Below are positions 4,352 to 46,259 of a stretch of 64,000 bases of DNA, one piece after another. The stretch lies in the NCBI GenBank assembly GCA_043228905.1, contig JBHGNT010000004.1:19654001-19718000 (forward strand), given 5' to 3'. The notes under the pieces were generated by a model that ran no database searches, was not told the DNA's origin, and worked only from the letters and a program-made list of their open reading frames with translations. The position numbers were made by a program, and so were the translations under genes. Positions within the stretch are counted from its first letter, which is position 1. Every line of letters starts with the position of its first letter. The stretch comes from Azolla caroliniana. Its lineage: Eukaryota; Plantae; Polypodiophyta.

Positions 4352-7300
4352 ACTCTGTAGCCTCGACTAGCACGTAACAACTCCCCCTGCATATGTCATT
4401 ACATACCCGGATGTAGACCGGTTGGTATCCACATCAGCCGACATGTCCGAATCGGTGAAACCGTCAAGTTGAGGTTTTCCGGAGCCGAATTGGAGGCACA
4501 TATTTGAAGTGCCCTTCAAATACCAGAGTATCCATTTGACCGCGTTCCAATGCTCCTTGCCGGGATTGCTCATAAACTGGCTCACCACTCCGACTGCGTA
4601 TCCTATATCCGGTCGGGTACATACCATTGCGTACATCAAGCTCCCGACAACAGAGGCATATGGAATCTTCATCATATCCGCCTTCTCTGCTTTCGTCTTC
4701 GGGCTTTGCTTACCGGATAACCTGCAGTTTGCTGGAAGTGTCGATCCGACCGGTTTCACATCTGACATGTTGAACCGGTGAAGAACCTTTGTCATGTACT
4801 TCTCCTGTGACAGCCATAATTGCTTCTTTGACCGGTCCCGAATGATGTGCATCCCCAGCATCTGTCTTGCCGGACCCAAGTCTTCCATTGAGAAGGTACG
4901 GTTGAGAGCCTTCTTCAGCATCTGTATTTTGACTTGGTCCCGTCCGACAATCAACATGTCATCCACGTACAAAAGGAGTATCAGGAAGTCGCCTCCTTCG
5001 AACTTCTTCACAAACACGCAATGATCGGCCTGCGTCTTGTGGTACCCTTGATCAGTCATGAAGGAATCAAACTTCCGGTACCATTGCCGGGGAGCCTGCT
5101 TCAGTCTGTACAGGCTCTTCTTCAACCGGCATACCAGGTGCTCCTTCCCTTTCTCCACGAATCCTTCTGGTTGCTACATGTAGATCTCCTCTTCGAGGTC
5201 ACCGTGAAGGAATGTCGTCTTCACGTCTAACTGCTCTACCTCGAGGTCCATGCTTGCCGCTATACTCAGCACCGTCCAGATGGAGGTCATCTTTACTACC
5301 GGGGCAAATATCTCGTCGAATTCCACGCCCTTCTTCTGCTGGAACCCCTTAACCACGATCTTGGCTTTGTATCTCGGGGGGTTGCCGACATCTCCCGGTT
5401 TCAACTTGTACACCCACTTGTTTCGGAGAGCCCGCTTTCCTTTCGGCAACTCCACCAATTTGTACGTATGGTTCTCATGCAGGGAATCCATCTCATCCTG
5501 CATGGCACTTAACCATTTGCGGCTATGAGTGTCATCCTTCGCTTCTTCGAAGCTTTCCGGCTCCCCCTGATCGGTCAGCAGCACATGCTTTGCATCCAGA
5601 AATCTCCGGGGGGCCCTTCTCTCTCTGAGAGGATATCTCCGTCTTTGGGCTTCGGTAGCCGGCTCCTCCATTTGCTCTTCATCCGAATCCGATTCGGGGT
5701 CTAGGCCGGTTCCGGTCTCAGCTTCCTCTACTTCTTCTTCTGCCGGTTCGGTATCCTCACCGTAACCGGCTGGTTCCTCGAGTGCTAACCGGTCTCTTGT
5801 CGATTGGGTCTGCTCATCGTAGAATCGATCCTTACCGGTCGACTTGGAGTTCATTATCTTCTTCTCCGACTCCCAGTCGGCGAGTGTGTTGTCTTCCATG
5901 AAGATAATATCTCGACTCCGGAATACCTTCTTGTCGACCAGGTCCCACACTCGGTAGCCGAACTCATCGTCACCGTAACCGAGGAATATGCATGGCCGGG
6001 TCTTTGGATCTAACTTTCCTCTCCGGTCCTTAGCTACATGCACGTACGCGAGACACCCGAACACCTTCACATGCCGGTAGGATACTTCCTTACCGGTCTA
6101 CACTCTCTGTGGCGTGTCTCCGTCCAAGGGTACTAAGGGTGATCTATTTATCACATATGTCGCCGTCGACAATGCCTTAGCCCAAAACTTCTTGGGTAGT
6201 TTTGCATGCGCTAGCATACTCCGGACCCTCTCCATTATGGTCTGGTTCATCCTCTCGACCAGTCCGTTTAGTTCCGGCGTCTTTGGCACGGTAAATTTGA
6301 GCCGGATTCCCTTCGAGCGGCAGTACTCCTCGAACTGCCCCCGGTATTATCCTCCGTTATCTGCTCGAACCGCCTTCAGCTTCCGGCCGGTTTCTCTTTC
6401 CACTCTCGCGTGGAGCTCTCTGAAGACGGATAGCACCTGATCCTTCGTCTTCAACGGTGTGGCCCACAGCTTCCGCCTGTGGTCATCTATGAACATCACG
6501 AAGTACTGCGCTCCGGCATGTGACTTCGTGTCTACTTGACACACATCTGTATGCACCAACTCCAATGGTGCATTACGTCTCATCGGTGGCCTTGGTTGGA
6601 AGGAGGTCCGGTTTTGCTTACCGGCCAGACAATCAGTGCACTTTTCCAAGTGCACGTTCTTCACTGGAATGAGGTTTTCGTCTGCAAGCCTCTTCATCCC
6701 CTTCTCGCTCATATGACACAGCCTCTTGTGCCACAGCTCACCGGTAGTGTCGGATGCCACGTTCACTTCTTCCGGACATAACCGGGCATTCATCAGGTAC
6801 AGTGTGTTGACCTTCCGGGCCAGAGCCACAATCAGGCTCCCTTTGTTGAACTTTATGACACCGTTCTGGATGCTACCCGTGTAGCCTTCATCATCTAGCC
6901 GACCGGCTGATATCAGGTTCAGACGAACCTCCGGAACGCGTCGGACATCCTTCAGCAGCAACTTGCATCCGGTTGGTGTTGTCAGCCACACGTCTCCTAT
7001 GCCGACAATTCGGCATGTACCTTCATTCCCCATCCGGACACAGCTGTGATCACCGGTTGAGTAGCATGAGAAGCATTTTCGGTCCGGGGTAAGGTGGAAC
7101 GACGCTCCGGAGTCTACCACCCAGGTCGTCTCGTCGCCGGCAAGGTTTATCTCACTCTCCTCGGTGATGAGCATCAACTCTTCTTCACTTGCCGTGATTG
7201 CCGTTGTTCCCTTCCGATTCGGCCCCCTACTGTCTTTACCGTTCCGGTCCGGGGTCCGCTTCGAATCGGTACCATCAGTTTCCTTGTCTTTTCGGAAATG

Positions 7301-8038
7301 CCGACAGTTCTTTTGGAAGTGTCCCGGCTTGCCGCAATAGAAGTAAGTAGGCCTCCCCCTTGACTTTGACCGTGTCCCCGACTTCTCCCGGTTCTGGGGA
7401 CTACGGTTTCTATGTCTTCCGCGTTTCGATTCAGTAAGGAGCGCTTTGGAGTCGGAGCTCGTATCTTTATTCTTCCTACGCGCCTCCTCATCTAGCAAGC
7501 TCGACTTTACTCTTGCTAGGGATAACCGTTTTCCTTCCGACTCGGCGTTGCCCAAAGTGACAACCAACGTCTCCCAGCTATCCGGGAGGGAACCGAGCAG
7601 GAGTAGCGCTAGTACCTCATCGGCGAGAGGTACTTACAATGAAGTTGCCTGGTGAATCAGCCCCTGGAAGGCATTCATGTGCTCCGCCATGTTGGAGCCA
7701 TCTTGGTACCGGAGGCTTACTAGCTTCCGGAATACCGAAACCTGATTGACAGCATTTTTGTTTTGAAACATTATGCCGATCTTCTCCCAGAGCTCATGAG
7801 CCTTGCTCTCTTCGTTGAAGTTGTTGTATAGGCTCATGTCGATGAAGCACCGTATGTACGCCGTTGTCTTCATGTGCATCACCTCCCATATTGTGGCGTC
7901 GATCTTGTCCGGTCTCTTGTCCCCGAACTGAACCGGTAACCAAAGATCTTTAACCACGAGCATGTCCCTCATCTTCGACTTCCACACTGAGTAGTTGGAG
8001 CTGGTGAGCTTGAACATGCCGCCAAACGATTCGTCCAT
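4352..8038 (-). pseudogene. copia gag-pol polyprotein, broken by several stops
   Basis: MDESFGGMFKL start at 8038; zinc knuckle YCGKPGHFQKNC (first Cys mutated); protease WVVDSGAS; integrase WHKRLCH/CTDC/HTDVC; RT YVDDML. Split over ORFs 7634-8110, 6347-7567, 6098-6289, 5174-6070 and 4367-5158. Confidence 0.92.
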
Positions 8039-8053
8039 TTTTTGTGTTGTTTC

Positions 8054-8065
8054 GCTCTGATACCA
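8054..8065 (-). promoter_or_regulatory. Primer binding site (tRNA-iMet)
   Basis: TGGTATCAGAGC on the minus strand, 2 nt inside the LTR end. Confidence 0.9.
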
Positions 8066-8067
8066 CT

Positions 8068-8880
8068 TGTTGGGAACTCCACGCTCCGTATGCACAACGC
8101 TCGGCCACAACCGAGCTTAGAATCATACACAGAAAACAGCAAGTGATACGCACGACACAAAGAGGAGAAGAGTACATAGGATGTTTACGTGGAAAACCCA
8201 AACTAAGGGAAAAACCATGGCAGCCCACAGGCTGCAAACTATCACTATGTTAGTTTGTACAATAGTGAGTTCACAGAGGCAACGACCTCGTGCTCACGAT
8301 CCTCGCCACAAGCGGCGGTTACAATCAAAGGCAACGACCTCTTCCTCTCTCTCTTACTCTCTGTACACAATTACGCACTCTAATCTCGCGTAGACAAGGA
8401 TAACAACAACAGACAACTAAAAGTTTGCCCTAAGTCATATTTATACTAATATGACTTTTCGGCTATTTACAAATATAGCCTCGATGGACTCTCAGAAACA
8501 TATTTACGAATATGTCTCTTCATCCGGTGAGCATTCCTCACCGGGTCTGCACCATCCGGCTCTCCGTAGCCGGGTACTCCTCATCCGGTTCTCACCGGGT
8601 CTGCACCATCCGGCTCTCCGTAGCCGGGTACTCCTCATTCGGTTCTCATCGGGTCTGCACCATCCGGCTCTCCGTAGCCGGGTACTCCTCATCCGGTTCT
8701 CACCAGGTCTGCACCATCCGGCTCTCCGTAGCCGGGTACTCCTCATCCGGTTCTCACCGGGTTTGCACCATCCGGCTCTCCGTAGCCGGGTACTCCTCAT
8801 CCGGTCTTCACTGGGTCTGCACCATCCGGTTTCGGCATTGTTCTTCTCCCTTCCCATCTGGAGGGACCTGTCTCCCAACA
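8068..8880 (-). repeat. 5' LTR of copia B (813 bp)
   Basis: Inverted termini TGTTGGGA...TCCCAACA, adjacent to the PBS. Confidence 0.92.
8537..8831. repeat. 54-bp tandem repeat (~5.5 copies) within the LTR U3
   Basis: Unit ctcaccgggtctgcaccatccggctctccgtagccgggtactcctcatccggtt; the 18-aa period in the ORF track confirms 54 bp. Confidence 0.93.
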
Positions 8881-10710
8881 CTAATGGTTAATGCACCTAC
8901 CTTATAACAAAGAGGTTTTGGATTCGAGTTCCACTAGGTGTGCAACACTAATGAGAGAAATGACTGATCCGATTCCTCGAAGTAACCTGTACACCAAGAC
9001 AAACAATAATGTGATCGCAAATCCATTTCGTAACAACCACAACGATGTTGAATAATATCGTAATGCCAAATTCAATCCAAAGTAAGTGGTGATTAGCAAC
9101 CTAATTAAGTGGAACGCTTCTAGCCAAATGGATAAGACACTTGACCCGTAATGAAGGGATTGGTGGGTTCAAGTCCCACCAGGTGTGCACGACATCAAGG
9201 AAAGTAAACCCTGATGTCATTCCTTGTAATACCCCGTACACAATAACGTGACGTCAAATCCATTGAGTAACAACCGGACTGACATTGAATAAATTCGTAT
9301 CGTCAAATTCATTCCAGAGTAGTGATTAATAGTGTAGCCAATTATTGTGTCCTAATGGATGTTGCACCTACCTTCTAACGAAGAGGTTTTGGATTCGAGT
9401 CCCACAAGGCAACCAACACACGCGGATGCCAAATAATAGAGTAATGCCAGATCCATTCCAAAGTAACTGGTGATTGAGAACATAACCAAATCGAGTGTTT
9501 GTGGCTTAATGGATAATGCACTTGCCTTCTAATCATGGGAATGTGGGTTCAAGTCCCACCTTGCATGCAGCACGAACAACAACATTTTGTGATCTCATTT
9601 CTCGTGATAACCTGTACACCAAGACGAACAATAATGTGACAACAAATCCATGGCTCAACAATAACGTAACGCAAATTTTACTTATACCAAAGTAGAGTAA
9701 CCAAATTTAACGTAACGCAAATTTTACTTTCACCAAAGTCCAAATTTAACGTAATGCAAATTTTACTTATACCAAAGTAGAGTAACCAAATTTATACCAA
9801 CGCTGAATAATAAGGCATTGCAATTGTAATCAAGGGATTGTGGGTTCGAGTCCCACAAAGCCTACAACACGAAGGACATCACGCCTTGATCTGATTCCTC
9901 GTAATAACCCTTACACCAAGACGAACAATAAGGTGACATCAAATCCATTGCGTAACAACCATACCATGAATAATAGTGTAACGCCAAATCCATACTAAAG
10001 TAAGTGGGGGGTAAGCGGTGATTAATATTAGTTAGTGTAACTAAATCGAGTGCTTGTGGCCTAATAGATAAGGTACTTGACTTCTAATCAAGGGATTGTG
10101 GGTTCGAATCCCATCAGGTGTGCACAACATGAAGGAGAACCCTGATCCCATTCATTGTAATGACCCGTACACAAAGATGAACAATAATTTGATCTCAAAT
10201 CCATTGCGTAAGAACCACACTCACGCTAAATAATAATGTAATGCCATATTCGTTCTAGAGCGGGGAGTAATACATTAATCAATACTTGTGTCCTAATGGA
10301 TAATGCACCTACCTTGTAACGAAGAGGTTTTGGATTCGAGTTCCACTAGGTGTGCAACACGGATGAGAGAAAACACTGGACCGATTCCACATAGCAACCT
10401 GTACACCAAGACGAAAAATAATGTGATTTCATATCCATTGCTTTCAAAACACATCATAACGTAACCATTCCAAAGGAAGAGGTGATTAACACATCAAGCG
10501 CTTGTGGCTTAATGGATAATGCACTTGACTTCTAATTATGGGAATTTGGGTTCGAGTACCATGCAACACGAAGTATAGCATGTCGTGATGTCATTCCTCG
10601 TGATGACCCGTACACCAAGACGAATGATAACATGACATCAAATCCATTGCGCAATAACCACACCAAAACTGAATAATAACGTTAACACCAAATTTATACT
10701 AGAGTAGCAA
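8881..10710 (+). repeat. Tandem array of 8 tRNA-Arg(UCU)-derived units with conserved ~150-bp spacers
   Basis: tRNA-like segments at 8881-8942 (5' end cut by the LTR), 9114-9187, 9341-9413, 9495-9567, ~9811-9863 (partial), 10050-10122, 10282-10354 and 10498-10563. They carry TGGCCTAATGG-like A boxes and GGTTCGAGTCC-like B boxes; most spacers share gtacaccaagacgaacaataa..tgacatcaaatccattg. Confidence 0.9.
10050..10122 (+). tRNA. tRNA-Arg(UCU)-like unit, best copy of array 1, probably a pseudogene
   Basis: 73 nt; anticodon arm CTTGA-CTTCTAA-TCAAG (TCT at 10083-10085); T arm GTGGG-TTCGAAT-CCCAT. D-loop GG is changed to AG and the acceptor stem is mostly G:U pairs. Closely resembles plant cytosolic tRNA-Arg(UCU) as I recall it. 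Confidence 0.7.
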
Positions 10711-11233
10711 CATGACCATATGATCGAGGACCTACTTGCCTCGTAGTTCCAACAATAATGGCGCGCGTTCATTTGCTAGTGGCTTTGAAGATGCACTAGT
10801 CTAATACATGGGCTAGAACTAAAAAGTCTAGGCTTTGAAGCAGGCGTCCAATACATGGTCTAGAAATCAGGAGGTGTTGGTTGATATGCGACCTCGAAGT
10901 GTTATTGTCTGCCACTTCTGACTCGCGTGTTCAATCAGAGTGTGCTTTTACTTATTTATAACCTTATACATTAAGTGAGGAGGTGTGAATGCATCTTAAA
11001 AACCCTCCTCCTTAAACCCCCTCAAAACTCTCTCTGGTTTTGTAGAAAATGAATGAATGAACGAATGAATGAATACATACGTTCCATTTGAACTGAAATT
11101 TCTCAAACGCTAAACTCTTGCCTCCCTTGTTTCCTGTGTATATAGGTACAAAAACTCACCAGAATTCCTATGGAATCCTTCTATCTGAGGAGCCCAAATA
11201 GTTCTCACCATCCCTAAAGTTTTAGTAGGAGGT

Positions 11234-13762: not shown

Positions 13763-15947
13763 GTGGTTAAAGCTTCTAAAGAGGACTAATTGTATGATGG
13801 TGTTTGAACGTTCAAGTTTTTGGATTATATCACAATCCCTGTCAATCTATAGTCAATGTTCTCGGATTCATCGCTTAATCAAGACATTGATGATGGAAAG
13901 GCCATCGCGTCGAGATTCTTCATCCTTCCAATGCTGATGGTCAACACGATTTGAAGATGTGGCTATCTGATTACATAGTGCTCAAGGTAATGAACAAATC
14001 GGAGTTTCAATAAATCAATCATCCATATATTGCAACAATGGAAGACTTGGCTATGTGATTACTTAGTATTGGAGGTATTGAACAAATCAGAATTCTACAA
14101 ATCAATCATCCATGTATTCATGTTTAATGGAAGTTCTTGATGTGGCTAGAGAAACTAAGTTTTCCCTCATTTTGACACAGGTGCTCAGACGTTTGGTTGG
14201 AGTGTGGCAAAATTACAACTTTACTCGGAAATGGTATTTAGATTTCCTTAAATGCTATTGTATTAATGCATCTAACAATTAAGATGTGCTTAACATAAGA
14301 AAAAGAAATCTGGATTTATTCCATACAGACTGACACGTAAAAGTAGTGGTGATTTTTTTATCAATTTCCATTCATTCCTTTCTGTGGTATGTATTTCCAA
14401 TGTGACATGTGTACATTGCTGATTTATAAAAATGCAGATCTACTGCAGGCCCATTGCAGAATTTATTGTTCCTAGCTACATTATTGGAAATATGTGATCA
14501 GATCTAATCATTTTGATCTTAGCTCGTGCATAAGATCAAGGAAGGAGGAAAAATGGTTTTACAGGGCATTATCTGATCCATTGAGATTCAATAACACTTG
14601 TTTCCGATAGTAACTCCTTTTTACTCTGTCTCCAAGATGCCTTAATTGTGTACTTCAGTCAATCATCTCTTCAATTGTTGTATTAAAATATGCTCAATTA
14701 TGTATAATTCCATTCTTACATGAATCGTGAGGTATGATCATGTTCACATTGATGTCTAGTTGCTTGTACCAGTATATATTGGTGAGCCACAGCATCTTCT
14801 CAAGGTTTGGAGATTTATAACTCCAGTGCCACTAGGAGCTGTAGTTTTTTTCTGTTCCTCTTCTTGTTCTCATCTTTTTAATTGCGCTTCTTCCGCTTTT
14901 GTTATGGTATATGTACGACATTCCGTTGATTTTTTTTGCCAATTCTGGTTTTCGATGTCAATCAATCCATGAAAACATTTAACTCAGTCATAAGAATTTG
15001 CTAACGAAGGATACTTAAATATTCATAACTTGATCATAGAGCAGTAAGCATGCCCATCTCAATATAGTTAGTTTCTCAAAATTTGCGGCATGATGACTCT
15101 ATGAGATGGGTCTAGTTTTGAGACTAGAAATGAAATCTTCTTTCATGTTTTTATGATGTATTTCTACCTCCACAGAGGTCATTCTGTAGCTCAACACATT
15201 GCTGGATGCTTACATTTGGAATAGAATGAAGGCTTTTTTACTTGATTGAGGTGAGGTGTGAATCTTCTAGCTAAAAAGCCTGAACTCATGTTGCTTTGCC
15301 AATCATGGCACCAATAACTTGAAATTCATTTTCTTATATATTGTTTGTGCATGGTAAAAAAAAAAGAATCAGGAAATCTTTGTCAACTATGTAATATACC
15401 CATTGGTGATGGGATATGTTTTTCTAAGGTTTTTGATCGAGGTCTCTAACAAGTAGTTGCCTTCAATATTGTGATTGGGTATCACATTTTGGCTTCTAAC
15501 CAATAAGATTTACATTTGACGTAATTGGTTTCCTTTGAAAGCTTTACAATTTTGTGTATAAGGTTCCCATTCTCTCTTATTGACTTCAAGACAATCATTC
15601 CCTTCTTATCCTCTCTTATGATCCATCTTTGTTACTTTGTTATTAGAAGACAATATCATCATTTATTTAAATTCTTCCTTGTTTTGTAACAACAATGCTT
15701 ATTAAATATAGATGGTTAGGCCCGTCATGAATTTCGCTTTGTTTTATAAGAAATTTGAAATAGGAAAGCACAACTTGAAATTGGTCTCTCTTTATTACTT
15801 TGCAAACAATAAAATGGTAAACATAGATGAAGAGGATGATAAAATACATACACATACACAACCGAGTCAAATTACTAGTAAGTTGCACACGCATGTGGTC
15901 ATCAAATGTCATGCTTGAACTTTTTGATGGAATGAAGCATTATTGTT

Positions 15948-15996
15948 AATAATAGCGTAATGGCAAATTCATCCCAAAGTAACCAGTGATTAACGA
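15948..15996 (+). repeat. Isolated fragment of the tRNA-array spacer (3' end)
   Basis: aataatagcgtaatggcaaattcatcccaaagtaaccagtgattaac matches spacer ends such as 9968-10025 and 9431-9475. Confidence 0.7.
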
Positions 15997-16594
15997 TGTA
16001 GTCGCGATATTCCGTGCCTTGGGAATCGGCTCGGGCGGAACCACTGGGGTTTTGGACTAAGGAACCTAAAGATGAGCGGCTACAAAGCTTTCCATGGCCA
16101 ATTCGGCCTGGTTATCGAAAGGCATATACTAAATGCAGGGCTTGGACATCGGATTCCAGAAGATGAGTACACGGGCTCTGAATCACAATGGATAAATGCA
16201 GAACAAGGGAGAGCAAACACCTTCCTATACACCGCAGACAAGATACAAATAATCACACAACTGAGGGAGAGACCAACACAAGGGCCATAGTGAGAGCACC
16301 CAAATACAACAATACCAGTTAATCGATTAAAGATATAGAAAGAATATAAGGAGATGGCTTTAGGCCGGTTAACAGAGCTTCGAGCTTGATATACGCGCAA
16401 ACAAGTGAGCCTCTAGTCAGTAGCACACGGGATTCCTACTCGAGCAGAGGCCTCACACCACCAATCTAGTTGAGCAGAACAAAAACCTAAAACACTCGAC
16501 AACCCAAACCGACAACACCTTCCCCTCTCAAAAAACCAATCCCCCCCCCCCCCTATCGCAAACACACTAAGCGCGGACTAGGACGGAGCACGGA
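15997..16594. mobile_element. Probable partial LTR of an unclassified element
   Basis: Abrupt start with TGTAG and a compositional shift; no coding homology recognised. The other end is not seen. Confidence 0.35.
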
Positions 16595-17130
16595 TGACAA
16601 GGCTACGAGGAACTTAAGAAGCTAGGAATGACATAAGAGAATGAAGACAAAGATGAAGAAGGAGACAAGATGGAATGAAACGAGAACACTAGATTGATGT
16701 GTCAATGACTGGTGTTGAATGCCTTGAAAGGGACCAAGGATGTTACAAGTATTTATACAATTTCCGAGATTGAATATCTCTATAATATACTCGTGAAATA
16801 TCTCGAGAATATACACGTTTAGAATATGCCACCAAAATAATTCTAGAATATACTAACAATTAGAATATTCTCGAATGTACTATACACTAGACTCTACAAT
16901 ATATACAAGTTTACACACACAATCAAATGTGGACAGTTCACAAGAGTTTCTATATGGTTAACACATCACAATGTACTGTGTGTGTTAAAAGTCAAAGGTT
17001 CGAGTCTAGACTGTGACATTATCCCCCCTCTTACGCCGCCTTCCCAAACTGGTCATTGGCTTAAGGGGATACTATTGATGAAAATCTTAAATCCTAAACA
17101 AGGAGTAACCCTTCTAGAAGACGAGGTATT
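16595..17130 (-). mobile_element. 3' end of a chromovirus-type Ty3/gypsy element: chromodomain scrap, PPT, 3' LTR (about 16595-17018)
   Basis: Minus strand reads QYLVF*KGY...DFHQ*YPLKP, then PPT AAGAGGGGGGATAA, then TGTCACA. The LTR is homologous, in inverted orientation, to the solo LTR at 45108-45489. Confidence 0.75.
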
Positions 17131-18165
17131 GAACACCAACGGGCATGACCATGTGCGGTCCTCGCCTAGGATTGGAACACGGGTGTGAGCGACCATGTGT
17201 GGTTCTCACGGGGAGCACAAACACCAACGGCCATGAGCGACCATATGCGGTCCTCGTCGAGAACTGGAACACGAATACCAACAGGTGTGAGTGACCATGT
17301 GTGGTCACCAACAAGCATGAGAGACTATGTCGGTCCTCGTCGAGAGTTGGAACATGACCACCAACGGGCATGAGCGACCATGTGTGGTCCTCACTAGGAA
17401 CTAGAACATGAACATCATCAGGCATCAACAACCATGTCGGTCCTCGTCGGGATTTGCAACACGAACAATAGTTGGAGTGAGCGACCATGTGCGGTCCTCA
17501 CCAAAGATTGGAACGTGTAAAAATACCAACGGGTGCGAGTGACCATATGCAGTCCTCACAAGAGATTGGAACAAGAATACCAACGGGTGCGAGTGATTGT
17601 GTGCGGTCCTCATAGCGAACACGAACACCAACGGGCATGAGAGAACATGTCAGTGCTCTCTGAGAGTTGGAACACGAACGCCAACGAGCGTGAGCGACCA
17701 TGCGGCCCTCACCGAGAACTCAAACACGAACGGACGTGAGTGACCATGTGCCCCTCACCGAGACTTGAACATGAACAGACGTGAGCGACCATGCGGCCGT
17801 CACCAAGAACTCGAACACGAACAGACGTGAGTGACTATGCAACCCTCAGCAAGAGTTGGAACAAGAACAGACGTGAGAGACCATGTGCGGTCCTCACCAG
17901 ATATTAGAACATGAATACCAACGGGCGCAAGTGACCATGTGTGTTCCTCATAGTGAACACGAACACCAACGGGCGTGAGCGACCACCCTCACCAAAAGTT
18001 GGAACAAGAATAGACGTGAGTGACAATGTGTGGCCCTCATCGGGAACTGGAACGTGAGCGACCATGTGCGGTCCTCATCGAAAACACGAACAGGCATGAG
18101 CCACCATGTAGCCAACACCCCGAACTCGAACACAAACGGACGTGAGCGACCATGTGGCCCTCACC
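17131..18165. repeat. Degenerate ~50-60-bp minisatellite (roughly 18-20 units)
   Basis: Recurrent aacacgaacaccaacgggcgtgagcgaccatgtgcggtcctcaccgagagttgg variants. Confidence 0.9.
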
Positions 18166-20019
18166 TAGAAGATTCTGGACAACAAAAACACCTTAGCAAT
18201 CACCGCGAGCGAGGAGGAGCTACTCTTCATCAACGAAAGTACGAAGCTAATCTTGTCGGCGAAGTATCAACAGGGCTGGTCGATTCCGGTGCATCGTTTC
18301 ACCTGATCCCCAACACAAAATGCTTCTCATCATATACGGTTGGTGATCACGGATATGTGAAGATGGTAAATGGCAGTGCATGCAAAATAACCGGAATCGA
18401 AGAGGTACGTTTGCTGACATCAATAGGTTGCAGAATGGTATTGAAGGATGTGCGCCATGCTCCAGACATCTGATTGAATCTGATATCTCGACCGAATGAC
18501 TCGGTGGCGAAGGTAAAGGTGGTACCTTCGGAAACGGCACCTGGAAATTCTGCAAGGGAAACCTTATTGTGGTTCGTGCCTGGAAGCAAAGTACACTAGA
18601 TGTGATGCACTCATGGTTGAACCGGAATGAGGTAAATGTGGCAGCTGCCACAGTCGGTAAGCTGTGGCATAAGAGGCTGTGCCACATGAGTTAGAATGGC
18701 ATGCAGATGCTAATTGAAAAGGAACTCCTGTCAGAGGTGAAGAAAGTGCATTTGGACAAATGCCCCGATTGCCTAGTCGGAAAACAGAATAGGACCACCT
18801 TTTGCCCCAGACACTTTGGAACATGTGAATACGGATGTATGCCAAGTTGATGCAAAGTCACATGCCGGTGCACAATATTTTGTGACCTTCATAAATGTCT
18901 ATAGCCGGAAATTGTGGGTTTCCACACTAAAGACAAAGGACAAGGTGTTGTCCATCTTCAAAGAATTCTAAGCAAGAACGAAAAGAGAATTCGAAGAAAA
19001 GTTGAAGGCTATCCGAACGGATAATGGAGGGGAGTATAGAGGGCAGTTCGAGAAATACTATCGGGTTCAAGGTATCCATCTGGAATACACAGTGCCAAAG
19101 ACTCCAGAACTAAATGGAATGGCCGAAAGGATGAACTGGATCGTGATGGAGAGGGTCTGATGTATGTTAAGTTGTTGAAAACCTATTGGGCTAAGTCTTT
19201 GAAGACGGTTATCTATGTGATAAACAAGTCTACCTTGGTTCCCTTAGAAGGTGATATCCCATAGAGGGTGTGGAGTGGGAAGGTCATGTCATACCGACAT
19301 CTGAGGGTGTTCGGTTGCCTAACATATGTACTCATTACTAAGGGCCGGAGAAGAAAGCTAGATCCTAAGAGCAGGTCATGTATCTTCCTGGAGTACGACG
19401 AAGATGAATTTGGTTACTAGCTATGGGACCTGATAGACAATAAGGTTATCAGGAGACGAGACATAGTCGTCATGGACGATAAGACTATCACCGACTGGGA
19501 GACGAAGAAGAAGGGATCATCCTCCAAGTCAACCGAAAGAGAGCAATTGGATGTAATAAGTACCCAACTGGATGGAAACCGAATTCTAGCCAAAGAACAA
19601 AGAGAACCAGCCGGATTCAGCCAAGGAACCGAATCGACCGAAAGAGAACCAGAAGTAAGATCAGAGCATGGATCCGAATCGGATTCAGATGAGGAGTCGA
19701 TTGAAGGGGAAGATGTAGAATCATCGGTAGATATCCTCTTAGAGAGAGAAGGGCCCCCTGTAGGTTTCCGGATGAAGAGCATGTACTCTTAACTAATGAG
19801 GGGGAGCCAGAAAGCATTGAGGAAGCAAAGAAGGATACCCACAAAGGAAAGTGGTTGAGTGCCATGTAAGATGAAATGGATTCCCTGCATGAAAACCATA
19901 CGTATGAGCTCATGGAGTTGCCGAAAGGAAAGAAGGTGCTCTTGAACCAGTGGGTGTACAAGTTCAAATTGGGAGATGGCAAGAATCCACCCAGATACAA
20001 AGCCCCAATTGTGGTGAAA

Positions 20020-36880: not shown

Positions 36881-36948
36881 AATGCCATGTTTTCTACACC
36901 CTTACAAGGAATCCATGTAATATAATGAGAAAAGATCTCATTGTCATC

Positions 36949-37296: not shown

Positions 37297-37536
37297 AGTA
37301 GTGGAGAAGAGGTCCGAGGTCCCTCTCAATGGGAAGAGAGCCTATCAGGTCAGGTGCCAACTTTTTGTCAACTAGTCTGACTTTGAGCTAGACTAGTACG
37401 AGAGCCAACTAAGCTAAGAGCCAATTCGACCAGCTAAGCTACGAACTAATTCGGCCGGCTAAGTTAAGAGCCAACTCAGCCGATCTGACCAGAGGCAAGC
37501 CGGACTGAAGCTTATGCAAGGCTATAATTGTAAATA

Positions 37537-38599: not shown

Positions 38600-39669
38600 T
38601 GTCAGTATATATACCTCATTATGGGTATTTTTGTAACTTGATGCTTATTAATATAGTGAAAGAACTTTTAGCTACATTATGTGTTAATCATCCCCTATTT
38701 TGTCTTATTGTTCATAAGTGTATTTCTTCTCTATCTCTCATTCAACTTCCTTTCTCTCTCACACACACATATCACGTAGTCTTCCATTGCTCAATCACAT
38801 ACATGATTAGCTACTTACATAATTAGATACTAATTAACCCTTAGTTACTTACATAATTATTAACATGGTATCAGAGCGTGTGGTTTAGCATATCCACTAA
38901 GCCCATCTGATTCCTAGTGATTGTGTGTTCAAGACGCCGACAACAACCCCCAGGCCGGCTATTTGCTATTGGAGTACCACTACATAGCAAGTGTACATGA
39001 TTGAAGAAAGAAAAGCCGAAAAGGAAGACACTACATCAACATTAACACACAAATGGGTAGCTCGCTCCCTAGTGAAAATCTAGACCATGGCAATTTTTCA
39101 ACTTGGGAGTACACAAGATCAACCAATACCGTATTGGCCAAGGTAAATGGAGTTACATTAAAGGGGGACTTGAAGAGAAACCCACCATCACAAACGCTAA
39201 CTATCCGGCATGGGAGCATGGAGTTATCCAAGTAATCTACTACTTGGCAATATGTGTTCATGATTACATGCTTAACCACATCCGAGATGCCAAGACTCCT
39301 AAAGAAGCTTGGGAAAATCTCAGGAAGATATTTGCTACCAACACATCTATTCAGAAGCTTCAACTTTGACAGGAATTGAACAATATCCGCCAAAAGGACA
39401 CGTCTGCGTCGGATTACACATGTAAGATCAAGACCATCTGTGACTCACTTAGCTCCATCAACATAAATGTCAAAGAGGATGAGCTTGTGCAAGTGTGCTT
39501 GGGTGGCCTTGCACAATAGTTCGATCCAATCAGGATGGCAATACTGGCAAGGGAAAATCCTCCTTGTTCTTTGACCTCCAATCTATGTTATTGGTCAAAG
39601 AAACTCATGTTAAATCTAAAAACAAGACATCTTAAGAACAAATGTTCTTCTCAAGTGTGGATAATGGCA
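38600..39669 (+). mobile_element. 5' part of a Ty1/copia (family A): LTR 38600-38865, PBS 38866-38877, decayed gag
   Basis: TGTCA...TTAACA, then TGGTATCAGAGC. gag MGSSLPSENLD..KEAWENLRKIFATNT..NVKEDELVQVCLGGL is homologous to 3793-4215. It breaks off into tRNA-array spacer at about 39670. Confidence 0.85.
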
Positions 39670-40219
39670 TGTACACCAAGACGAACCAATAACGTGACAT
39701 CAAATCCCTTTTGTAACGAACACACCAACAGTGAATAATAGCATAACACCAAATTCCTTGCAAAGTAATTGATGGTTAACAAGATAACTACATCAAGCGC
39801 TTGTGGCCTAATGGATAAGGCACTTGACTTCTAATCAAGGGATTGTGAGTTTGAGTCCCAACAGGCGTGCAACATGAAGGAAGGAGAGGAAACCTTGATC
39901 CCATTCTTGGCTCATTCACCAAGATGAAACAATACATGACATCAAATCCCTTGTGTAACAACCACACCAACATTGAATAATAGCATAACACCAAATTGCA
40001 TGCAAAGTAAGCAGTGACTAACAATTTGACCACATGGGGCATTTTTGGCCTAATGGATAAGAAACTTGACTCTCAATTGTGGGTTCGACTCCCACCATGT
40101 GTGCAAACGAAGTAGAGGGAACCCTTATCCAATTCCTTTTAAACACACGTACACCAAGACTAAACAATAACATGACATCAAATCCATTATGTAACAACCC
40201 ACACCAACATTGAATAAGA
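39670..40219 (+). repeat. Second tRNA-Arg(UCU)-derived array (2 tRNA-like units, 3 spacers)
   Basis: Same spacer consensus as 8881-10710; tRNA-like units at 39797-39869 and ~40038-40103 (internal deletion). Confidence 0.9.
39797..39869 (+). tRNA. tRNA-Arg(UCU)-like gene, T arm damaged (likely pseudogene)
   Basis: GCGCTTGTGGCCTAATGGATAAGGCACTTGACTTCTAATCAAGGGATTGTGAGTTTGAGTCCCAACAGGCGTG. Acceptor, D and anticodon arms pair; the B box is mutated (TTT for TTC); no downstream oligo-T. Confidence 0.75.
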
Positions 40220-43200
40220 TGTTGGGAAACATGTCCCTCCGGATGGGAAGAGAAGTACCATGTTGGTGAGTGTCTCTGTCGAGGCCGAAACCGAAATCAA
40301 AATCAAAATCAAAATCAAAATCGTTTCGGAAGACTATAATTGTAAATAGTCTAAAATGCCCCTTTGTGGGCTATACTTGTAAATAGCCAACTAGGGCAAC
40401 TAGGGCAAACTTTAGTAAGTGTAGTTGATCATTATTGTAAAGTGAGAACGAGGTAGTTGCCTCTATAACCGTGAGTGAGAGAGTGAGAGTGTAACTCTGT
40501 AGCCGTTTGTTAGATGAAGGAGAACTCGAGGTCTTTGCCTCCGAGTTCCGTATTTGTACTTCCTCTCTACCATAGTGATCTGTTTTCTTGGGGTTTGTGG
40601 ACCCCCGTGGTTTTTTCCCATTTTGGGTTTTCCACATAAAAATATTGGTGTCTCTGTGTCTTCACATTTTTCTATTTGCCTGCTAATTCTTGGTTTTTGT
40701 ACATGAATACAAACGTGAAACTGGTTGTGGCCAGTCATTTCCTAACAAAGTGGTATAAGAGCAATGGAAGACTCGTTCGGCGGCATGTTTAAGCTAACCG
40801 GCTCCAACTACTCAATGTGGAAGTCGAAGATGAGAGACATGCTCGTGTGCAAAGACCTCTGGTTGTTGGTGCAGTTCGGAGATAAAAGACCAAACAAGAT
40901 CAATGTAGCAACTTGGGAAGTGTTGCATCTGAAGGTAGTCGCATATATAAGGTATTTTATAGACATGAGTCTATACAACAAGGTCAACGAAGAAACAGAA
41001 GTAGGCGTCCTATGGAAGAATATCAGCGTCATGTTCGAAAACAAGAACGTTGTGAAGCGAGTCTCAGTATTTCGAAAAATCGTGAGGCTCCGGTATCATG
41101 ATGGCTCCAGTATGGCGGAGCACATCAATGCCTTCCAAGGACTGATGAACCAAACCACCTCTCTAGAAGTACCTCTGGCTAATGAGGTATTAGCACTGTT
41201 GTTGCTGGGATCCCTTCCGGACAGTTGGGAAACGTTGGTTGTCACGTTGGGCAACGCAAGACCGGAAAGGAAACGCCTATACCTAGAGTAGGTGAAGTCA
41301 AGCTTGCTAAACGAAGAAGCTCGCTGGAAGGACCGAGTGTCCAATACCGACCAGAAGGCCTTAGTCCCGAAAGGTGACACGATTCGGGGAAGAGACCGAA
41401 ATTGAAGTCCCCAGAACCAAGATAAGTCAAGGACCAGGTCGAAGTCGAGGGGGAGGCCCACGTGCTTCTATTGTGGGAAGTCGGGGCACTTCCAGTAAAA
41501 CTGCAGACACTTTCAAAAGGAGAAAGGGGGAGTTGATGGTGTAGAGCCGAAGAATATCCAGGACAGAAAGAACACCTCAACAATCGCCACAAGTGAGGAG
41601 TTGTTGCTCATCAATGAGCAAAACGAAGTGAATCTCGTCGGCGAAGAATCGACATGGGTGGTCGATTCAGGTGTGTCATTCCACCTAACCCCTGACCAAA
41701 AGTGCTTCTCATCCTACAGAGCCGGAGATCTCAGATCCATAAAGATGGGAAATGAAGGAGCATGCCGAATCGTTGGCATTGGAGATGTGTGTTTGGAAAC
41801 ATCAACCGGGTGCAAACTCGTGTTGAGAGATGTACGACACGTTCCGGAGGTTCAATTGAACCTAATATCAACCGGTCGGTTAGATGATGAAGGCTACATG
41901 GGTAGCATCCGAAACGGTGTCATGAAGTTCTGCAAGGGAAGTCTGATCGTGGCTCCAGCCCGGAAAACCAACACACTGTACATAATGAATGCTGGAATAT
42001 GCCGAGGGGAAGCAAACGTGGCAGCCGACACGGTCGGTGAACTATGGCACAGGAGGTTGTGCCATATGAGCCAGAAGGGGATGTAAAAGCTTTTCGAGGA
42101 CAACCTCATTTTGGAGGTGAAGAACGTGCAACTTGAGAAGTGCACTGATTGCTTGGCCGGCAAGCAGAATCGAACATCTTTCCGAATGAGGCCCTCGATG
42201 AGGAAGAAAATGTTGTTGGAGCTCGTGCATACGGACGTATGCTATATGGACACGAAGTCGCATGGTGGTTCACAGTATTTCGTGACCTTCATTGATGACT
42301 ATAGCAAGAAGTTGTGGGCTTCCGTGTTAAAGATGAAGGATCAAGTGTTATCCATCTTCAAAGAGTTCCAAGTGAGGGCCGAGAGAGAAACCGGCCGAAA
42401 ACTGAAGGTAGTTCAAGTGGACAATGGCGGAGAGTATCGTGGACCGTTCGAGGAATATTGCCAAAATCAAGGAATCCAGCTCGGGTATACTGTGCCGAAG
42501 ACGCTAGACCTTAATGGGCTGGCCGAGAGAATGAACCAGACCGTAATGGAAAGGGTCTGAAGTATGCGCGTACATGCTAAGTTACCGAAGACGTTCTAGG
42601 TTGAGGCGCTGATGACAACAATGTACGTGATAAACCGATCACCCTCAGTACCCTTGGATGGTGATATTCCACAAAGGGTGTGGAGTGGCAAAGACGTATC
42701 ATACCGACATTTGAGGGTGTTTGGCTGTCTTGCTTATGTGCATGTGGCAAAGGACCAGAGGGGGAAGTTGAACCCGAAATCTCGGATATGTATATTTCTC
42801 GGCTACAACAATGATGAATTTGGCAATCGGCTATGGGACTTAGCCGAGAAGAAAGTGATTAGGAGCCGCGACATTGTCTTCATGGAGGAAAAGACAATAG
42901 TCGACTAGGAGATTGGGAATAAGTCTCCAACTACCGAATCGAACCAAGTCGATGCTCGGCCAAATCGAGTAGAAGCCGATTCGATCGAAATTGAATCTGA
43001 GCTAGTCGGTTGAGTTAATATACTTGGCAAAATCGAGAACTGACTGAAGAGCGAGGGGAAACGGCCAAAAAAGGAATCGAATTCGAATTGGAGATGGATT
43101 CCTTGCATGAGAACCACACATATGGGCTGATCGAACTACGGAGAGGAAAGAAGGCACTTCGGAATAAATAGGTATACAAGTTGAAACCAGGAGATGGCGG

Positions 43201-43977
43201 GTATCCACCCAGGTATAAAGCACAAATCGTCGTGAAAGGTTTTCAACAGAAGAAGGGTGTTGATTTCGACGAAATATTTTCCCTAGTCGTAAAGATGACA
43301 TCAATCTGAACCGTGTTCAGCATCGCGGCCAGCATGGACCTCGAAGTCGAACAACTGGACGTCAAGACTGCCTTCCTCCATGGAGATTTAGAGGAAGAGA
43401 TATATTACATGCACTATCCAGAAGGATTTGTGGAAAAAGGTAAAAAAAATCTAGTATGCCGATTGAGGAACAGCTTGTACGGGTTGAAGCAAGCTCCTTG
43501 GCAATGGTACCGAAAATTCGAATCCTTCATGATCGACAATGGGTACCACAAAATGCAGGCCGATCACTATGTATTTGTGAAGAAATTAGATGGAGGAGAT
43601 TTCCACATCCTCCTGTTGTATGTGGACGACATGTTGATTGTCGGACGGGACCATACGAAGATTCGAGTGTTGAAGAAAGCCTTGAGCAGATCGTTCTCGA
43701 TGAAGGATATGGGTATGGCAAAGCAAATCTTGGGGATGCACATTGTTCGGGATGGAATAAAGAAATTGTTGTGGCTATCACAAGAAAAATACGTGACAAA
43801 GGTGTTCAAAAGATTCGGCATGGAAAGGGCGAAATTGGTCGGCTTGACACTGCCGACGAACTGCAAGTTAAGCAAAGAACAATGTCCGAAATAAAAAACC
43901 GAGAAGGCCGAGATGTCAAAAATTCCTTATGCCTTGGCAATTGGAAGTATATGTATGCGATGGTATGTACTAGGGCG

Positions 43978-44886
43978 GACATAGGATATGTAGTCAGCAT
44001 GGTTAGCCGATACATGAGCAACCCTAGAAGAGAGCATTGGGCTACCGTGAAGTGGAAACTTCGGTACCTAAAAGGCACCTCGAACGTGTGTCTTCATTTC
44101 GGTTCAAGTTACCCCACACTAGAAGGTTATACTGACTCAGACATGTTGGTTGATGTGGATACCGGTCGATCCACACCCGAGTACGTAATGACTTATGCAG
44201 GGGGAGTTGTTTCTTGGTAGTCGAGGCTGTAGAAGGCCGTGGCGTTGTCTACCACGGAAGCTGAATATATGGCCGCAACGGACATAGGATATGCAGTCAA
44301 CATGGTTAGCCGATACATGAGCAACCCTAGAAGAGAGCATTGGGCTACCGTGAAGTGGAAACTTCGGTACCTAAAAGGCACCTCGAATGTGTGTCTTCAT
44401 TTCGGTTCAAGTTACCCCACACTAGAAGGTTATACTGACTCAGACATGTTGGTTGATGTGGATACCAGCCGATCCACACCCGAGTACGTAATGACTTATG
44501 CAGGGGGAGTTGTTTCGTGGCTGTCGAGGCTGTAGAAGGCCGTGGCGTTGTCGACCACGGAAGCTGAATATATGGCCGCAACGGACATAGGATATGCAGT
44601 CAGCATGGTTAGCCGATACATGAGCAACCCTAGAAGAGAGCATTGGGCTACCGTGAAGTGGAAACTTCGGTACCTAAAAGGCACCTCAAATGTGTGTCTT
44701 CATTTAGGTTCAAGTTACCCCACACTAGAAGGTTATACTGACTCAGACATGTTGGTTGATGTGGATACCAGTCGATCCACACCCGAGTACGTAATGACTT
44801 ATGCAGGGGGAGTTGTTTCGTGGCAATCGAGGCTGTAGAAGGCCGTGGCGTTGTCGACCACGGAAGCTGAATATATGGCCGCAGCG
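43978..44886 (+). repeat. 303-bp tandem triplication spanning the RT/RNase H junction
   Basis: GACATAGGATATG at 43978, 44281 and 44584; ORFs 44239 and 44542 are near-identical. Confidence 0.93.
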
Positions 44887-45107
44887 GAAGCCGGCAAGGA
44901 AATCATATGGATGCAGGAGTTTATCGGTGAGCGGGGAATTCAGTAGGAGGAATTCCAACTACATTGCGATAACCAGAGTGCCATCCACCTTGCGAAAAAT
45001 GTCGCCTACCACTCGAGGAGCAAACACATCTAGAGAATATATCATTGGCTTCGAGAGCGAGTAGAAGAAAAGGAGTTTGCTCTAGTGAAGATCCACATGG
45101 CCGAAAA

Positions 45108-45489
45108 TGTCACACAGACATGTCCACAACTATGTCAAGATTCGAACTCTTGACCTCTTGTATTAGATAATCAAGTATTATATTATAACCAACACATCCA
45201 AGTACATGATCATGTTATGTATATCTTCGTAGATTATCTATTCATGTTCTAGGAGTTTTTAGAATGTTCTAGAACTTGAAGGTTCTAGAGGGTTCTAGAA
45301 TATTCTAATGCATGTACTTCGACTTACAATATAAATACTTGTAACCTCCTCGGTCCCTTTCAAGGGATTCTACACCAGTCATTGACGTATGAATATAGTG
45401 TTCTCGTTTCACCTCATCTTGTCACATTGATCTTCATTTCTATCTTCATACTCTTGTGTCTTTCCTAGCTTCTTGGTGTGTTTGTGACA
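45108..45489 (+). mobile_element. Solo LTR (382 bp) of the gypsy family seen at 16595-17018, inserted in copia RNase H
   Basis: TGTCAC...GTGACA termini; 5-bp TSD GAAAA (45103-45107, 45490-45494). Confidence 0.92.
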
Positions 45490-46259
45490 GAAAATGGATC
45501 GGATATGCTAACAAAGGTGTTGTCCGCCAAAAAGCTAAACGCATGCCGATAAAGAGTGGGTTTGGTGAACTACCCCATGCCGGAGTGAAGGGGGAGTTTG
45601 TTGGGAAACATGTCCCTCCGTATGGGAAGAGACATATCGTGTTGGTGAGTGTCTCCGTTGAGGCCGAAACCAAAATAGAGACCGAAAATCAAAATCAAAA
45701 TTGTTTCGGAAGACTATAATTGTAAATAGTCTAAAATGCCCCTTTGTGGGCTATACTTGTAAATAGCCAGAAAGTTTCTTTTTGTTTATAAGCAACTAGG
45801 GAAAACTTTAGTAAATGTAGTTGATCATTATTGTAAAGTGAGAACGAGGTGGTTGCCTCTGTAACCATGAGTGAGAAAGTGAGAGTGTAACTCTGTAAAC
45901 GTCTATCAGACGAAGGAGAACTCGAGGTCTTTGCCTCCGAGTTCCGTATTTGTACTTCCTCTCTACCATAGTGATCTGTTTTCTCGGGGTTTGTGGACCC
46001 CCATGGTTTTTTCCCATTTCGGTTTTTCCACTTAAAAATATCGGTGTCTCTATGTCTTCACGTTTTTCGGTCTGCTTGCTAATTCTTGGTTTTTGTACAC
46101 GAATACGAACGTGAAACCGGTTGTGGCCAGTCGTTTCCTAATAGTTCTCAAAGTACTCACACAAAGTTTAGGGATCAAGCAATTATTTACCTCACCATAC
46201 CATCCCCAAACTAACGGGCTCATAGAAAGGATGAACAAAACTATAAAACAAGTGATCAC

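What the first reader, a model, noticed from the sequence alone, without database searches (positions are those of the whole stretch)
8881..10710. Tandem tRNA-Arg(UCU)+spacer array: a tRNA-headed satellite or polycistronic Pol III locus
Seen: eight head-to-tail units, mostly ~215-260 bp apart, each a 73-nt tRNA-Arg(UCU)-like sequence plus a spacer that is about as recognisable as the tRNA part. There are no per-unit TSDs or poly(A) tails, so these are not dispersed SINE insertions. No oligo-T directly follows any tRNA, so these are not ordinary tRNA genes; the plus-strand spacers are A/C-rich and mostly lack T runs. The same unit recurs 30 kb away and as a scrap at 15948. Inference: a genome-wide family amplified from a tRNA gene, possibly transcribed by Pol III read-through into multimers that RNase P/Z could cut into tRNA-like and spacer RNAs. 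No copy here is a perfect tRNA.
Basis: partly seen in the sequence, partly recalled or inferred. Interest (0 to 1): 0.85.

Follow-up and report, generated by a model that had tools for sequence, protein, structure and literature searches.

The report
Decaying tandem tRNA-Arg repeat of ferns
This is a real, mostly broken tandem repeat in a fern genome whose unit is an arginine tRNA gene plus a spacer that lacks the usual transcription stop signal; related units occur elsewhere in this genome and in one other species, likely spread by DNA duplication, and whether any copy is transcribed is untested.

Summary
In detail: eight head-to-tail units at 8881-10715, three more at 39665-40219 and a spacer scrap at 15945, in fern DNA. 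The unit is a 73-nt tRNA-Arg(UCU) head plus a ~155-bp spacer with a ~49-bp internal duplication, no Rfam match and no conserved fold. Units are 58-83% alike. One head keeps all 21 pairs, three of ten keep both promoter boxes, and a stem-broken lineage was itself duplicated, so amplification went on after tRNA function was lost. Public DNA runs confirm the locus, show further head-spacer-head arrays in this genome, a head present roughly 10^2-10^3 times, and the same head+spacer tandem in another species. No SINE tail, target-site duplication or PBS/PPT was found. Best reading: a decayed member of a dispersed tandem tRNA-gene/tRNA-headed repeat family amplified as DNA; polycistronic transcription is possible for intact members but untested. 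Closest known: plant tDNA homoclusters and amphibian tRNA-headed tandem repeats. Lead: this tRNA also appears to be a primer of LTR elements in these ferns.

The parts
8881..9113 (+). Unit U1: 5'-truncated type-A head (8881-8942, anticodon TAT, internal T4, no intact box) + spacer
9114..9340 (+). Unit U2: head 9114-9187 (17/21 pairs, anticodon CGT, A and B boxes fit consensus) + spacer
9341..9494 (+). Unit U3: type-A head 9341-9413 (9/21 pairs, internal T4) + spacer lacking its first ~95 bp
9495..9791 (+). Unit U4: head 9495-9567 (16/21 pairs, TCT, both boxes, Rfam 42.7 bits), T4 at 9585, spacer with a 46-bp tandem expansion at 9662-9794
9792..10049 (+). Unit U5: head lacking its first 18 nt (recognisable 9810-9864, anticodon TGT) + spacer
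10050..10281 (+). Unit U6: best head 10050-10122 (21/21 pairs, TCT, Rfam 58.5 bits, one D-loop G lost, B box intact) + spacer
10282..10497 (+). Unit U7: type-A head 10282-10354 (15/21 pairs, anticodon TGT, internal T4, no intact box) + spacer
10498..10715 (+). Unit U8: 3'-deleted head 10498-10563 (TCT, A box intact) + spacer ending ~25 bp short; single-copy DNA follows
15945..16005 (+). Isolated scrap of the spacer's last third, no head
   Evidence: (E 3.5e-8)
39665..39796 (+). Unit B0: spacer only, fused to a truncated Copia gag
39797..40038 (+). Unit B1: head 39797-39869 (19/21 pairs, TCT, Rfam 52.3 bits, B box broken) + spacer
40039..40219 (+). Unit B2: head 40039-40103 (8-nt deletion in anticodon arm, both boxes) + spacer cut by an LTR
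4359..8880 (-). Flank, not part of the repeat: Copia element whose 5' LTR starts at 8880 and cuts the head of U1
38866..39664 (+). Flank: PBS and broken gag of another Copia element, ending at the array-2 junction
40220..46143 (+). Flank: Copia element (related lineage to the one at 8880) that cuts the spacer of B2; LTRs 88.6% alike, flanks do not match

Best explanation
This is an old, largely decayed piece of a dispersed family of tandem repeats in a fern, whose unit is a tRNA-Arg(UCU) gene with ~155 bp of flanking DNA and no oligo-T stop, likely multiplied as DNA by unequal recombination and block copying rather than through RNA. Shown: the unit structure, the decay, the recurrence at other loci and in a second species, the truncation by Copia insertions. 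Inferred steps: (1) a genuine fern tRNA-Arg(UCU) gene with a CAA-type upstream flank was duplicated in tandem together with a spacer that had itself arisen by a ~49-bp duplication; (2) units and blocks of units were copied on, also after some heads had lost their stems and promoter boxes (type-A lineage), so selection for tRNA function was not needed for the later steps; (3) arrays were copied or broken up to several loci and then evolved locally; (4) at this locus LTR insertions and deletions cut the arrays, and most heads are now pseudogenes, probably silenced like clustered tDNAs of Arabidopsis. At most U6, and weakly U4, U2, B1, could still give a tRNA-like RNA.
For: Head is a real tRNA version: it differs from an intact plant-type tRNA-Arg(UCU) fetched here (L003) by a two-sided change that keeps the 27:43 pair, plus positions 26 and 44. 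No head is followed by CCA; all are followed by CAA/CAC/CAG-type flank, and upstream ends resemble CAA motifs, so the unit is gene-derived, not a copy of mature tRNA. Tree of 11 units: U1+U3+U7 split from the rest at 100%, U4+U8 at 97%, array-2 spacers group at 83%; U1 and U7 share 12 changes in 62 head sites, including four or five broken pairs and an internal T4, and are 95% alike in the head. Outside the boxes the head changes as fast as the spacer (0.140 vs 0.153 minimum changes per sequence per site, p 0.31). Transitions at CG sites 9 of 36 against 16 of 331 at A/T sites (copies not independent). Spacer self-similarity at offset 49-50 in 6 of 9 spacers; score reached by at most 6 of 200 shuffles in 6 of 9. 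Run X1 holds at least nine separate contigs that go from a head to another head or upstream flank, each at about single-copy depth, and spacer-like pieces at 1-13 times single-copy depth. Run X11 (organism D) holds a 2.1-kb contig with three heads (spaced 204 and 819 bp) and a 99-nt spacer piece with 10 differences, and 14 contigs with the spacer's end in front of a head. Both array ends tested fall to near single-copy depth (10724 onward; gag junction at 39655-39723), so neither array is repeated together with its flank.
Against: A and B boxes changed about half as often as the rest (0.075 vs 0.140, p 0.048; vs spacer p 0.005; 0 of 136 spacer windows as low), which hints at past selection on promoter or tRNA function, or at conversion by intact genes; three of ten heads still fit both boxes. 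Nine of ten heads have no T4 within 25 nt and 3 of 11 units (U2, U5, U6) plus U7-U8 spacers have none at all in the spacer, so lack of a terminator looks ancestral and leaves read-through open. CpG is not depleted in array 1 relative to the window (o/e 0.84 vs 0.73; array 2 0.37), and transversions at C/G are as common as transitions outside CG, so methylation-driven decay is only partly visible. The way arrays moved between loci is not shown; no whole genome was available.
Confidence: 0.62

Rival explanations
1. Intact members of the family are working polycistronic Pol III loci: transcription starts in one head, runs through terminator-free spacers, and RNase P/Z release tRNA-Arg(UCU); this locus is a worn copy. 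Compatible with the best explanation for the origin, different for present function.
For: No T4 in most spacers; boxes better kept than the rest; U6 folds fully; plant tRNAs lacking poly-T are reported to form Pol III dicistrons processed with snoRNAs (PMC8166872 passages); organism D holds many copies with the same upstream flank.
Against: Three of eight heads of array 1 would stop Pol III internally and lack both boxes; by a hand count, independent pair-breaking events are about as dense in acceptor+T stems (16 over 12 pairs) as in D+anticodon stems (16 over 9 pairs); spacer has no fold or family; clustered tDNAs are silent in Arabidopsis (PMC7544208 abstract).
Confidence: 0.2
2. The unit is a tRNA-Arg-derived SINE (head + body) that formed tandem arrays, like SINE-derived satellites of reptiles.
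For: Length ~230 bp, tRNA head with boxes kept better than the rest, body of unknown origin; head is abundant genome-wide.
Against: No A-, T- or simple-repeat tail and no duplication between units; spacer end resembles a tRNA gene's upstream flank; head best copies are complete cloverleaves; wherever contigs were long enough the spacer sat between heads; spacer depth is only 1-13 times single copy at 80% likeness.
Confidence: 0.08
3. The arrays are cargo or tandem derivatives of a mobile element (tRNA-bearing TRIM such as Helenus, or an LTR/Helitron/CACTA interior) that spreads them.
For: Both arrays touch Copia sequences; array 2 is fused to a gag; dead type-A heads recur at other loci (6-9 contigs, about 10 times single-copy depth), so whole arrays were moved somehow.
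Against: No PBS (best 9 of 12 against the window's own PBS) and no constant purine tract in the spacers; gag-array junction and array-1 3' flank are near single copy; the Copia LTRs cut through a head and a spacer, i.e. arrived later; the spacer profile hits none of the window's elements.
Confidence: 0.1

Closest known systems
Plant tandem tDNA homoclusters (Arabidopsis Pro and Ser-Tyr-Tyr, maize Ile/Ala, barley Gln, Ceratodon Ile/Cys; PMC13437025 section 10, passages and Table S3 search; PMC12652284 passages; PMC7544208 abstract)
   Same: Same-isotype tRNA genes head to tail at ~200-250 bp with homologous flanks, made by tandem duplication.
   Different: Isotype Arg(UCU): none of the 34 'TCT' places in Table S3 of PMC13437025 belongs to a plant, though whether a fern entered that cluster table was not established; no poly(T) tract; units only 58-83% alike, mostly pseudogenes; many small arrays rather than one cluster.
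tRNA-headed tandem Pol III repeats of amphibians: PolIII/TAN (newt, ~360 nt), OAX/satellite I (Xenopus), Rana/polIII (~250 nt), Hy/polIII (~200 nt) (as described in PMC10702118 section 3)
   Same: 200-360-nt tandem unit with a tRNA-related part and an unrelated remainder, no matching SINE known.
   Different: Fern, independent origin; head still nearly a complete tRNA-Arg; far lower abundance of the spacer; transcription not tested here (shown in vitro for PolIII/TAN according to that paper).
tRNA gene hyper-amplification in the fern Azolla filiculoides (7,848 genes, >10,000 tRNA-like sequences; PMC13437025 Table S1 row; 10.1101/2021.12.21.473619 passages; PMC13578239 passages)
   Same: Fern genome with very many tRNA and tRNA-like copies; head here stands at 10^2-10^3 times single-copy depth in three organisms laid.
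   Different: Those papers put it down to genome duplication and repeat content and, in the passages seen, describe no tandem Arg arrays; the species of this window was not determined.
Tandem tRNA-Arg(UCU) cluster in metagenome contigs L003/L004 (found here)
   Same: Five near-intact plant-type tRNA-Arg(UCU) copies 171-400 bp apart with shared flanks.
   Different: Each copy is followed by a T-rich terminator; spacer unrelated (best E 8.5); an ordinary cluster.
Helenus / TRIMp3 (PMC10886601 abstract and passages)
   Same: tRNA-like sequence inside a short repeat; tandem arrays noted for one family; one lycophyte family known.
   Different: Needs LTRs, PBS, PPT and 5-bp target duplications; none found.

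Membership tests
Plant tandem tDNA homocluster | At least 5 genes of one isotype within 5 kb | tested here: inconclusive
   8 heads in 1.8 kb, but only 2 of 8 pass ARAGORN and the Rfam gathering score
Plant tandem tDNA homocluster | Homologous upstream and downstream flanks between copies | tested here: met
   Spacer profile hits all units at E 1e-8 or better; mean identity 67%
Plant tandem tDNA homocluster | Intact A and B boxes and cloverleaf | tested here: inconclusive
   Both boxes in 3 of 10 heads; 21/21 pairs in 1 of 10; no head has both
Plant tandem tDNA homocluster | Poly(T) terminator (T4 or more within 25 nt) | tested here: not met
   1 of 10 heads; feature is weaker in non-angiosperm land plants (PMC13437025)
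Plant tandem tDNA homocluster | Silencing by DNA methylation | not testable with these tools
   Only indirect: CG transitions 9 of 36, CpG o/e 0.84 and 0.37
tRNA-headed tandem Pol III repeat (PolIII/TAN, OAX, Rana/polIII, Hy/polIII type) | 200-360-nt head-to-tail unit with a tRNA-related part and an unrelated remainder | tested here: met
tRNA-headed tandem Pol III repeat (PolIII/TAN, OAX, Rana/polIII, Hy/polIII type) | Amplified beyond one locus, also without tRNA function | tested here: met
   Other head-to-head contigs in X1, tandem contig in X11, duplicated dead type-A heads
tRNA-headed tandem Pol III repeat (PolIII/TAN, OAX, Rana/polIII, Hy/polIII type) | Pol III transcription | not testable with these tools
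   No raw RNA reads offered
tRNA-headed tandem Pol III repeat (PolIII/TAN, OAX, Rana/polIII, Hy/polIII type) | Sequence homology to the named families | not tested
   No sequences of those families were at hand; homology not expected
SINE or SINE-derived satellite | tRNA-derived head with A and B boxes | tested here: met
SINE or SINE-derived satellite | Simple-repeat or poly(A) tail; target-site duplication | tested here: not met
   None at any unit end or at the array-1 3' end in the alignments
SINE or SINE-derived satellite | Abundant dispersed monomers of the same element | tested here: inconclusive
   Spacer depth 1-13 times single copy at 80% likeness; more diverged copies would be missed; no genome held
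SINE or SINE-derived satellite | Body matches a catalogued SINE (Repbase/Dfam/SINEBase) | not testable with these tools
   No such library offered
Helenus / TRIMp3 | PBS and PPT between tRNA-bearing LTRs | tested here: not met
   Best PBS-like match 9 of 12 (iMet-type PBS of the window), no self-PBS, longest purine run 4-17 nt and not constant; other primer tRNAs were not screened
Helenus / TRIMp3 | 5-bp target-site duplication around the element or array | tested here: inconclusive
   Array ends are cut by later insertions or deletions
Plant tRNA-snoRNA dicistron | tRNA gene without poly(T) | tested here: met
   9 of 10 heads
Plant tRNA-snoRNA dicistron | snoRNA 1-16 nt behind the tRNA | tested here: not met
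   No + strand snoRNA match at E 10 on either array; 0 consensus pairs in 7 spacers; a box-C heptamer in only 1 of 9 spacers

The most novel reading that the evidence does not exclude
Ferns of this group have amplified a terminator-less tRNA-Arg(UCU) gene into dispersed tandem arrays whose intact members are read as polycistronic Pol III precursors, and the amplification is tied to LTR retrotransposons that use this very tRNA as primer (reportedly for both strands): a primer-supply array, either host compensation or driven by the elements. It would explain part of the unexplained tRNA-gene excess of fern genomes.
Probability: 0.12. Interest if true: 0.8.

Novelty: new variant of a known kind. 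Interest (0 to 1): 0.42.

Why it matters
The very large numbers of tRNA genes and tRNA-like sequences reported for a fern are currently put down loosely to genome duplication and repeats. This locus shows a concrete route: a tRNA gene plus flank turning into a satellite-like unit that keeps being copied after the tRNA is dead, in more than one species. It warns that tRNA gene counts in ferns include such arrays, gives a plant counterpart of the amphibian tRNA-headed tandem repeats, and points to a testable link between one amplified tRNA and the retrotransposons it appears to prime. As a functional locus this copy is probably unimportant.

Tried and rejected
Whole-genome copy count: no genome held. 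RNA: no RNA holder listed; contigs of two runs guessed to be RNA were laid, X12 gave no cover over array 1 but also none over the start of the neighbouring PPR gene, X14 laid nothing on array 2: uninformative. Organism C (X10) holds the head (one 57-nt contig at depth 1035 against ~17 for single contigs) but gave no cover of the spacer at 80% likeness: no proof of absence. Spacer motif in viral and prokaryotic collections: 0 and 0 hits. Tandem-anticodon pattern in metagenomes: 6 loci, 2 (the same cluster twice) plant-type Arg tandems with unrelated spacer, 4 unrelated. Spacer as box C/D snoRNA: rejected. Rfam 'Plastid-ycf2' matches are the reverse strand of the tRNA heads, below the gathering score. 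Targeting of the array by Copia: two related elements cut the two arrays, but the window holds at least four stretches of this lineage, so no claim. Faster change of the type-A head than of its spacer: 12 of 62 vs 13 of 140, p 0.06, not significant. Primer link inside the window: all PBS sites inspected are iMet-type, none matches the Arg head. Species of the window: exact look-up of three PPR readings found nothing, the protein atlas gave no answer. A paper id recalled for co-transcribed Chlamydomonas tRNA genes was not held, so that precedent is recalled only and not used. Earlier-findings search by sequence and by words found no note on this repeat.

Full report
Setting. The window is fern DNA: two intronless PPR genes, a cytochrome P450 and nested Copia and Gypsy elements; every listed relative of the PPR at 33893-36901 that carries a species name is from Adiantum or Ceratopteris, best 52-54% identity, so it is a fern but none of those species. 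No whole genome was held.

The observation. Eight units lie head to tail at 8881-10715, three more at 39665-40219 and a spacer scrap at 15945-16005, all on the + strand. Spacings are 244, 227, 154, 297, 258, 232 and 216 bp. ARAGORN and Rfam of the 10 heads (9495, 10050, 39797) as tRNA-Arg(UCU). Units are 58-83% alike; heads average 73%, spacers 67%. Contigs of runs from three studies cover most of array 1 with 0-5 differences per piece, so it is not an assembly artefact (one run may be the source).

State of the heads. Against intact plant-type tRNA-Arg(UCU) copies fetched from a metagenome contig (L003), the fern heads share four differences, two of which swap the 27:43 pair and keep it paired, so the founder was a real tRNA. 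Pairs kept: U1 7/12, U2 17/21, U3 9/21, U4 16/21, U5 8/10, U6 21/21, U7 15/21, U8 10/15, B1 19/21, B2 12/16; six of ten still read TCT. Both promoter boxes fit consensus in U2, U4 and B2 only; U6 has lost a D-loop G (box patterns are recalled consensus). No head is followed by CCA. One of ten has T4 within 25 nt downstream; U1, U3, U7 and B2 have a T-run inside the head.

History. A tree of 11 units splits U1, U3 and U7 (type A) from the rest at 100%, joins U4 and U8 at 97%, and groups the array-2 spacers at 83%. Type-A heads share about ten changes that break the D, anticodon and T stems, damage both boxes and create an internal T4; U1 and U7 are 59/62 identical in the head, and type-A-like heads occur on 6-9 other contigs of run X1. 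A dead head was therefore duplicated, as part of a U3-U4 / U7-U8 type block. Outside the boxes the head changes as fast as the spacer (0.140 vs 0.153; p 0.31); the 21 box sites change about half as often (0.075; p 0.048 against other head sites, 0.005 against spacer). That is the one sign of past selection or conversion; it rests on few, related copies, and by hand count only 7 of 13 box changes fall on tolerated positions against about 40% expected. Decay shows a CG bias (9 of 36 vs 16 of 331 at A/T), but CpG is depleted only in array 2.

The spacer. It is A/C-rich (A 35-44%), has no Rfam family on the + strand at a meaningful score, no consensus pair in an alignment of 7, and carries an internal duplication at offset ~49 (best or second-best offset in 6 of 9 spacers; at most 6 of 200 shuffles reach the score in 6 of 9). 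It matches none of the window's transposons, holds no PBS or constant purine tract, and shows no tail or target duplication. Its end resembles a tRNA gene's upstream flank.

The family elsewhere. In run X1 single-copy DNA has depth 27-44. The head of B1 has summed depth 10,435 (5' part), 33,770 (middle) and 19,329 (3' part), the spacers 31-525. Summed contig depth is not a copy number (overlapping short contigs inflate it), so I read this as some hundreds of heads and tens or fewer of spacers within 80% likeness. At least nine joints in X1 run from a head to another head or upstream flank, on separate contigs of single-copy depth, and others run from a head into a spacer-like stretch (15 of 21 joints shown). 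Organism D (X11) holds a 2,106-nt contig with heads 204 and 819 bp apart and a 99-nt spacer piece with 10 differences, and 14 contigs with the spacer end before a head; organism C (X10) holds the head about 60-fold in one 57-nt contig.

Flanks. A Copia LTR cuts the head of U1 and a related Copia LTR cuts the spacer of B2; the second element's LTRs are 88.6% alike and its flanks do not match, so the rest of the array was lost by rearrangement. Array 2 is fused to a truncated gag, with a few bases shared at the junction; family contigs of that gag stop at 39665-39666 and depth falls from 6,900 to ~65-127, so this is a local deletion, not cargo. Behind array 1 depth is single-copy from 10724.

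A lead. Loose ends behind the head in X1 (13 contigs) and X11 (8 contigs) read tRNA 3' end, CCA, four bases, then TG (consensus agreement 0.65-0.67), the look of a primer-binding site next to an LTR end. Unreviewed notes from this scan describe, in the same genome, Gypsy elements with tRNA-Arg sites at both priming positions. Part of the 3' head depth thus comes from retroelements, and this tRNA is likely a primer of abundant elements. No element in this window has an Arg-type site, so a causal link to the arrays is only a hypothesis.

Mechanism. Most likely (0.62) a tRNA gene with its flanks became a tandem unit, was multiplied by unequal recombination and block copying, spread to several loci, and here decayed under LTR insertion. 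Polycistronic function of intact members (0.2), a carrier element (0.1) and a SINE origin (0.08) remain as rivals. Transcription could not be tested.

What is known. Tandem tDNA homoclusters are well described in plants (PMC13437025 section 10, passages and supplement searches; PMC12652284 passages; PMC7544208 abstract); no plant Arg-TCT cluster stands among the 34 'TCT' places of the first paper's cluster table. That paper also reports the lowest share of T4 terminators in non-angiosperm land plants (n 8,091, of which one fern lists 7,848; the dominance is my inference). tRNA-headed tandem repeats of 200-360 nt are known from amphibians (PMC10702118 abstract and section 3). Helenus (PMC10886601 passages) and tRNA-snoRNA dicistrons (PMC8166872 passages) fail their defining tests. 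Azolla's excess of tRNA and tRNA-like sequences is on record without this explanation in the passages seen. PMC9526063 (passages) did not bear on it. Ten full-text searches (listings only, apart from the papers named) showed no description of tandem tRNA-Arg arrays in ferns; subscription journals, repeat libraries and the supplement of PMC12652284 were not seen.

Verdict. Real, ordinary in kind, new in detail: a fern tRNA-headed tandem repeat without terminator, caught in decay. Interest 0.42.

Noticed in passing
runs X1 and X11, loose ends at window 39870: Contigs carrying this tRNA's 3' end plus CCA next to a TG start, like primer-binding sites of LTR elements primed by tRNA-Arg(UCU), in two organisms.
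   Followed up: partly
L003 648-1749 and L004 648-1749: Independent cluster of five near-intact plant-type tRNA-Arg(UCU) genes, each with a T-rich terminator, in AT-rich metagenome contigs.
   Followed up: partly
window 40220-46143: Copia element with LTRs 88.6% alike and unmatched flanks (likely recombinant); holds a 303-bp triple repeat at 43976-44888 (97% alike) inside its RT region.
   Followed up: partly
window 46258-53278: Gypsy element on the - strand, LTRs 94.6% alike, matching 5-bp flanks, iMet-type PBS and an ordinary purine tract; each LTR holds a 12-mer identical to the tRNA A-box region (46570, 53132), probably chance.
   Followed up: partly
window 20909-22990: Large foldback region built from palindromic ~51-bp units, AT-rich; not identified.
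   Followed up: no
window 8537-8829: 54-bp tandem repeat (5.4 copies, 95%) inside the Copia LTR; very high depth in DNA runs, with many length variants.
   Followed up: no
window 37316-38565: 82% direct repeat on both sides of a 100-N assembly gap at 37848-37947.
   Followed up: no
L006 131-1653: Dense cluster of 15 tRNA genes of mixed isotype with short spacers, two of them Arg(UCU); unrelated to the fern repeat.
   Followed up: no
window 17130-18170: Degenerate 46-91-bp tandem repeat region in front of a Copia pol stretch; not identified.
   Followed up: no
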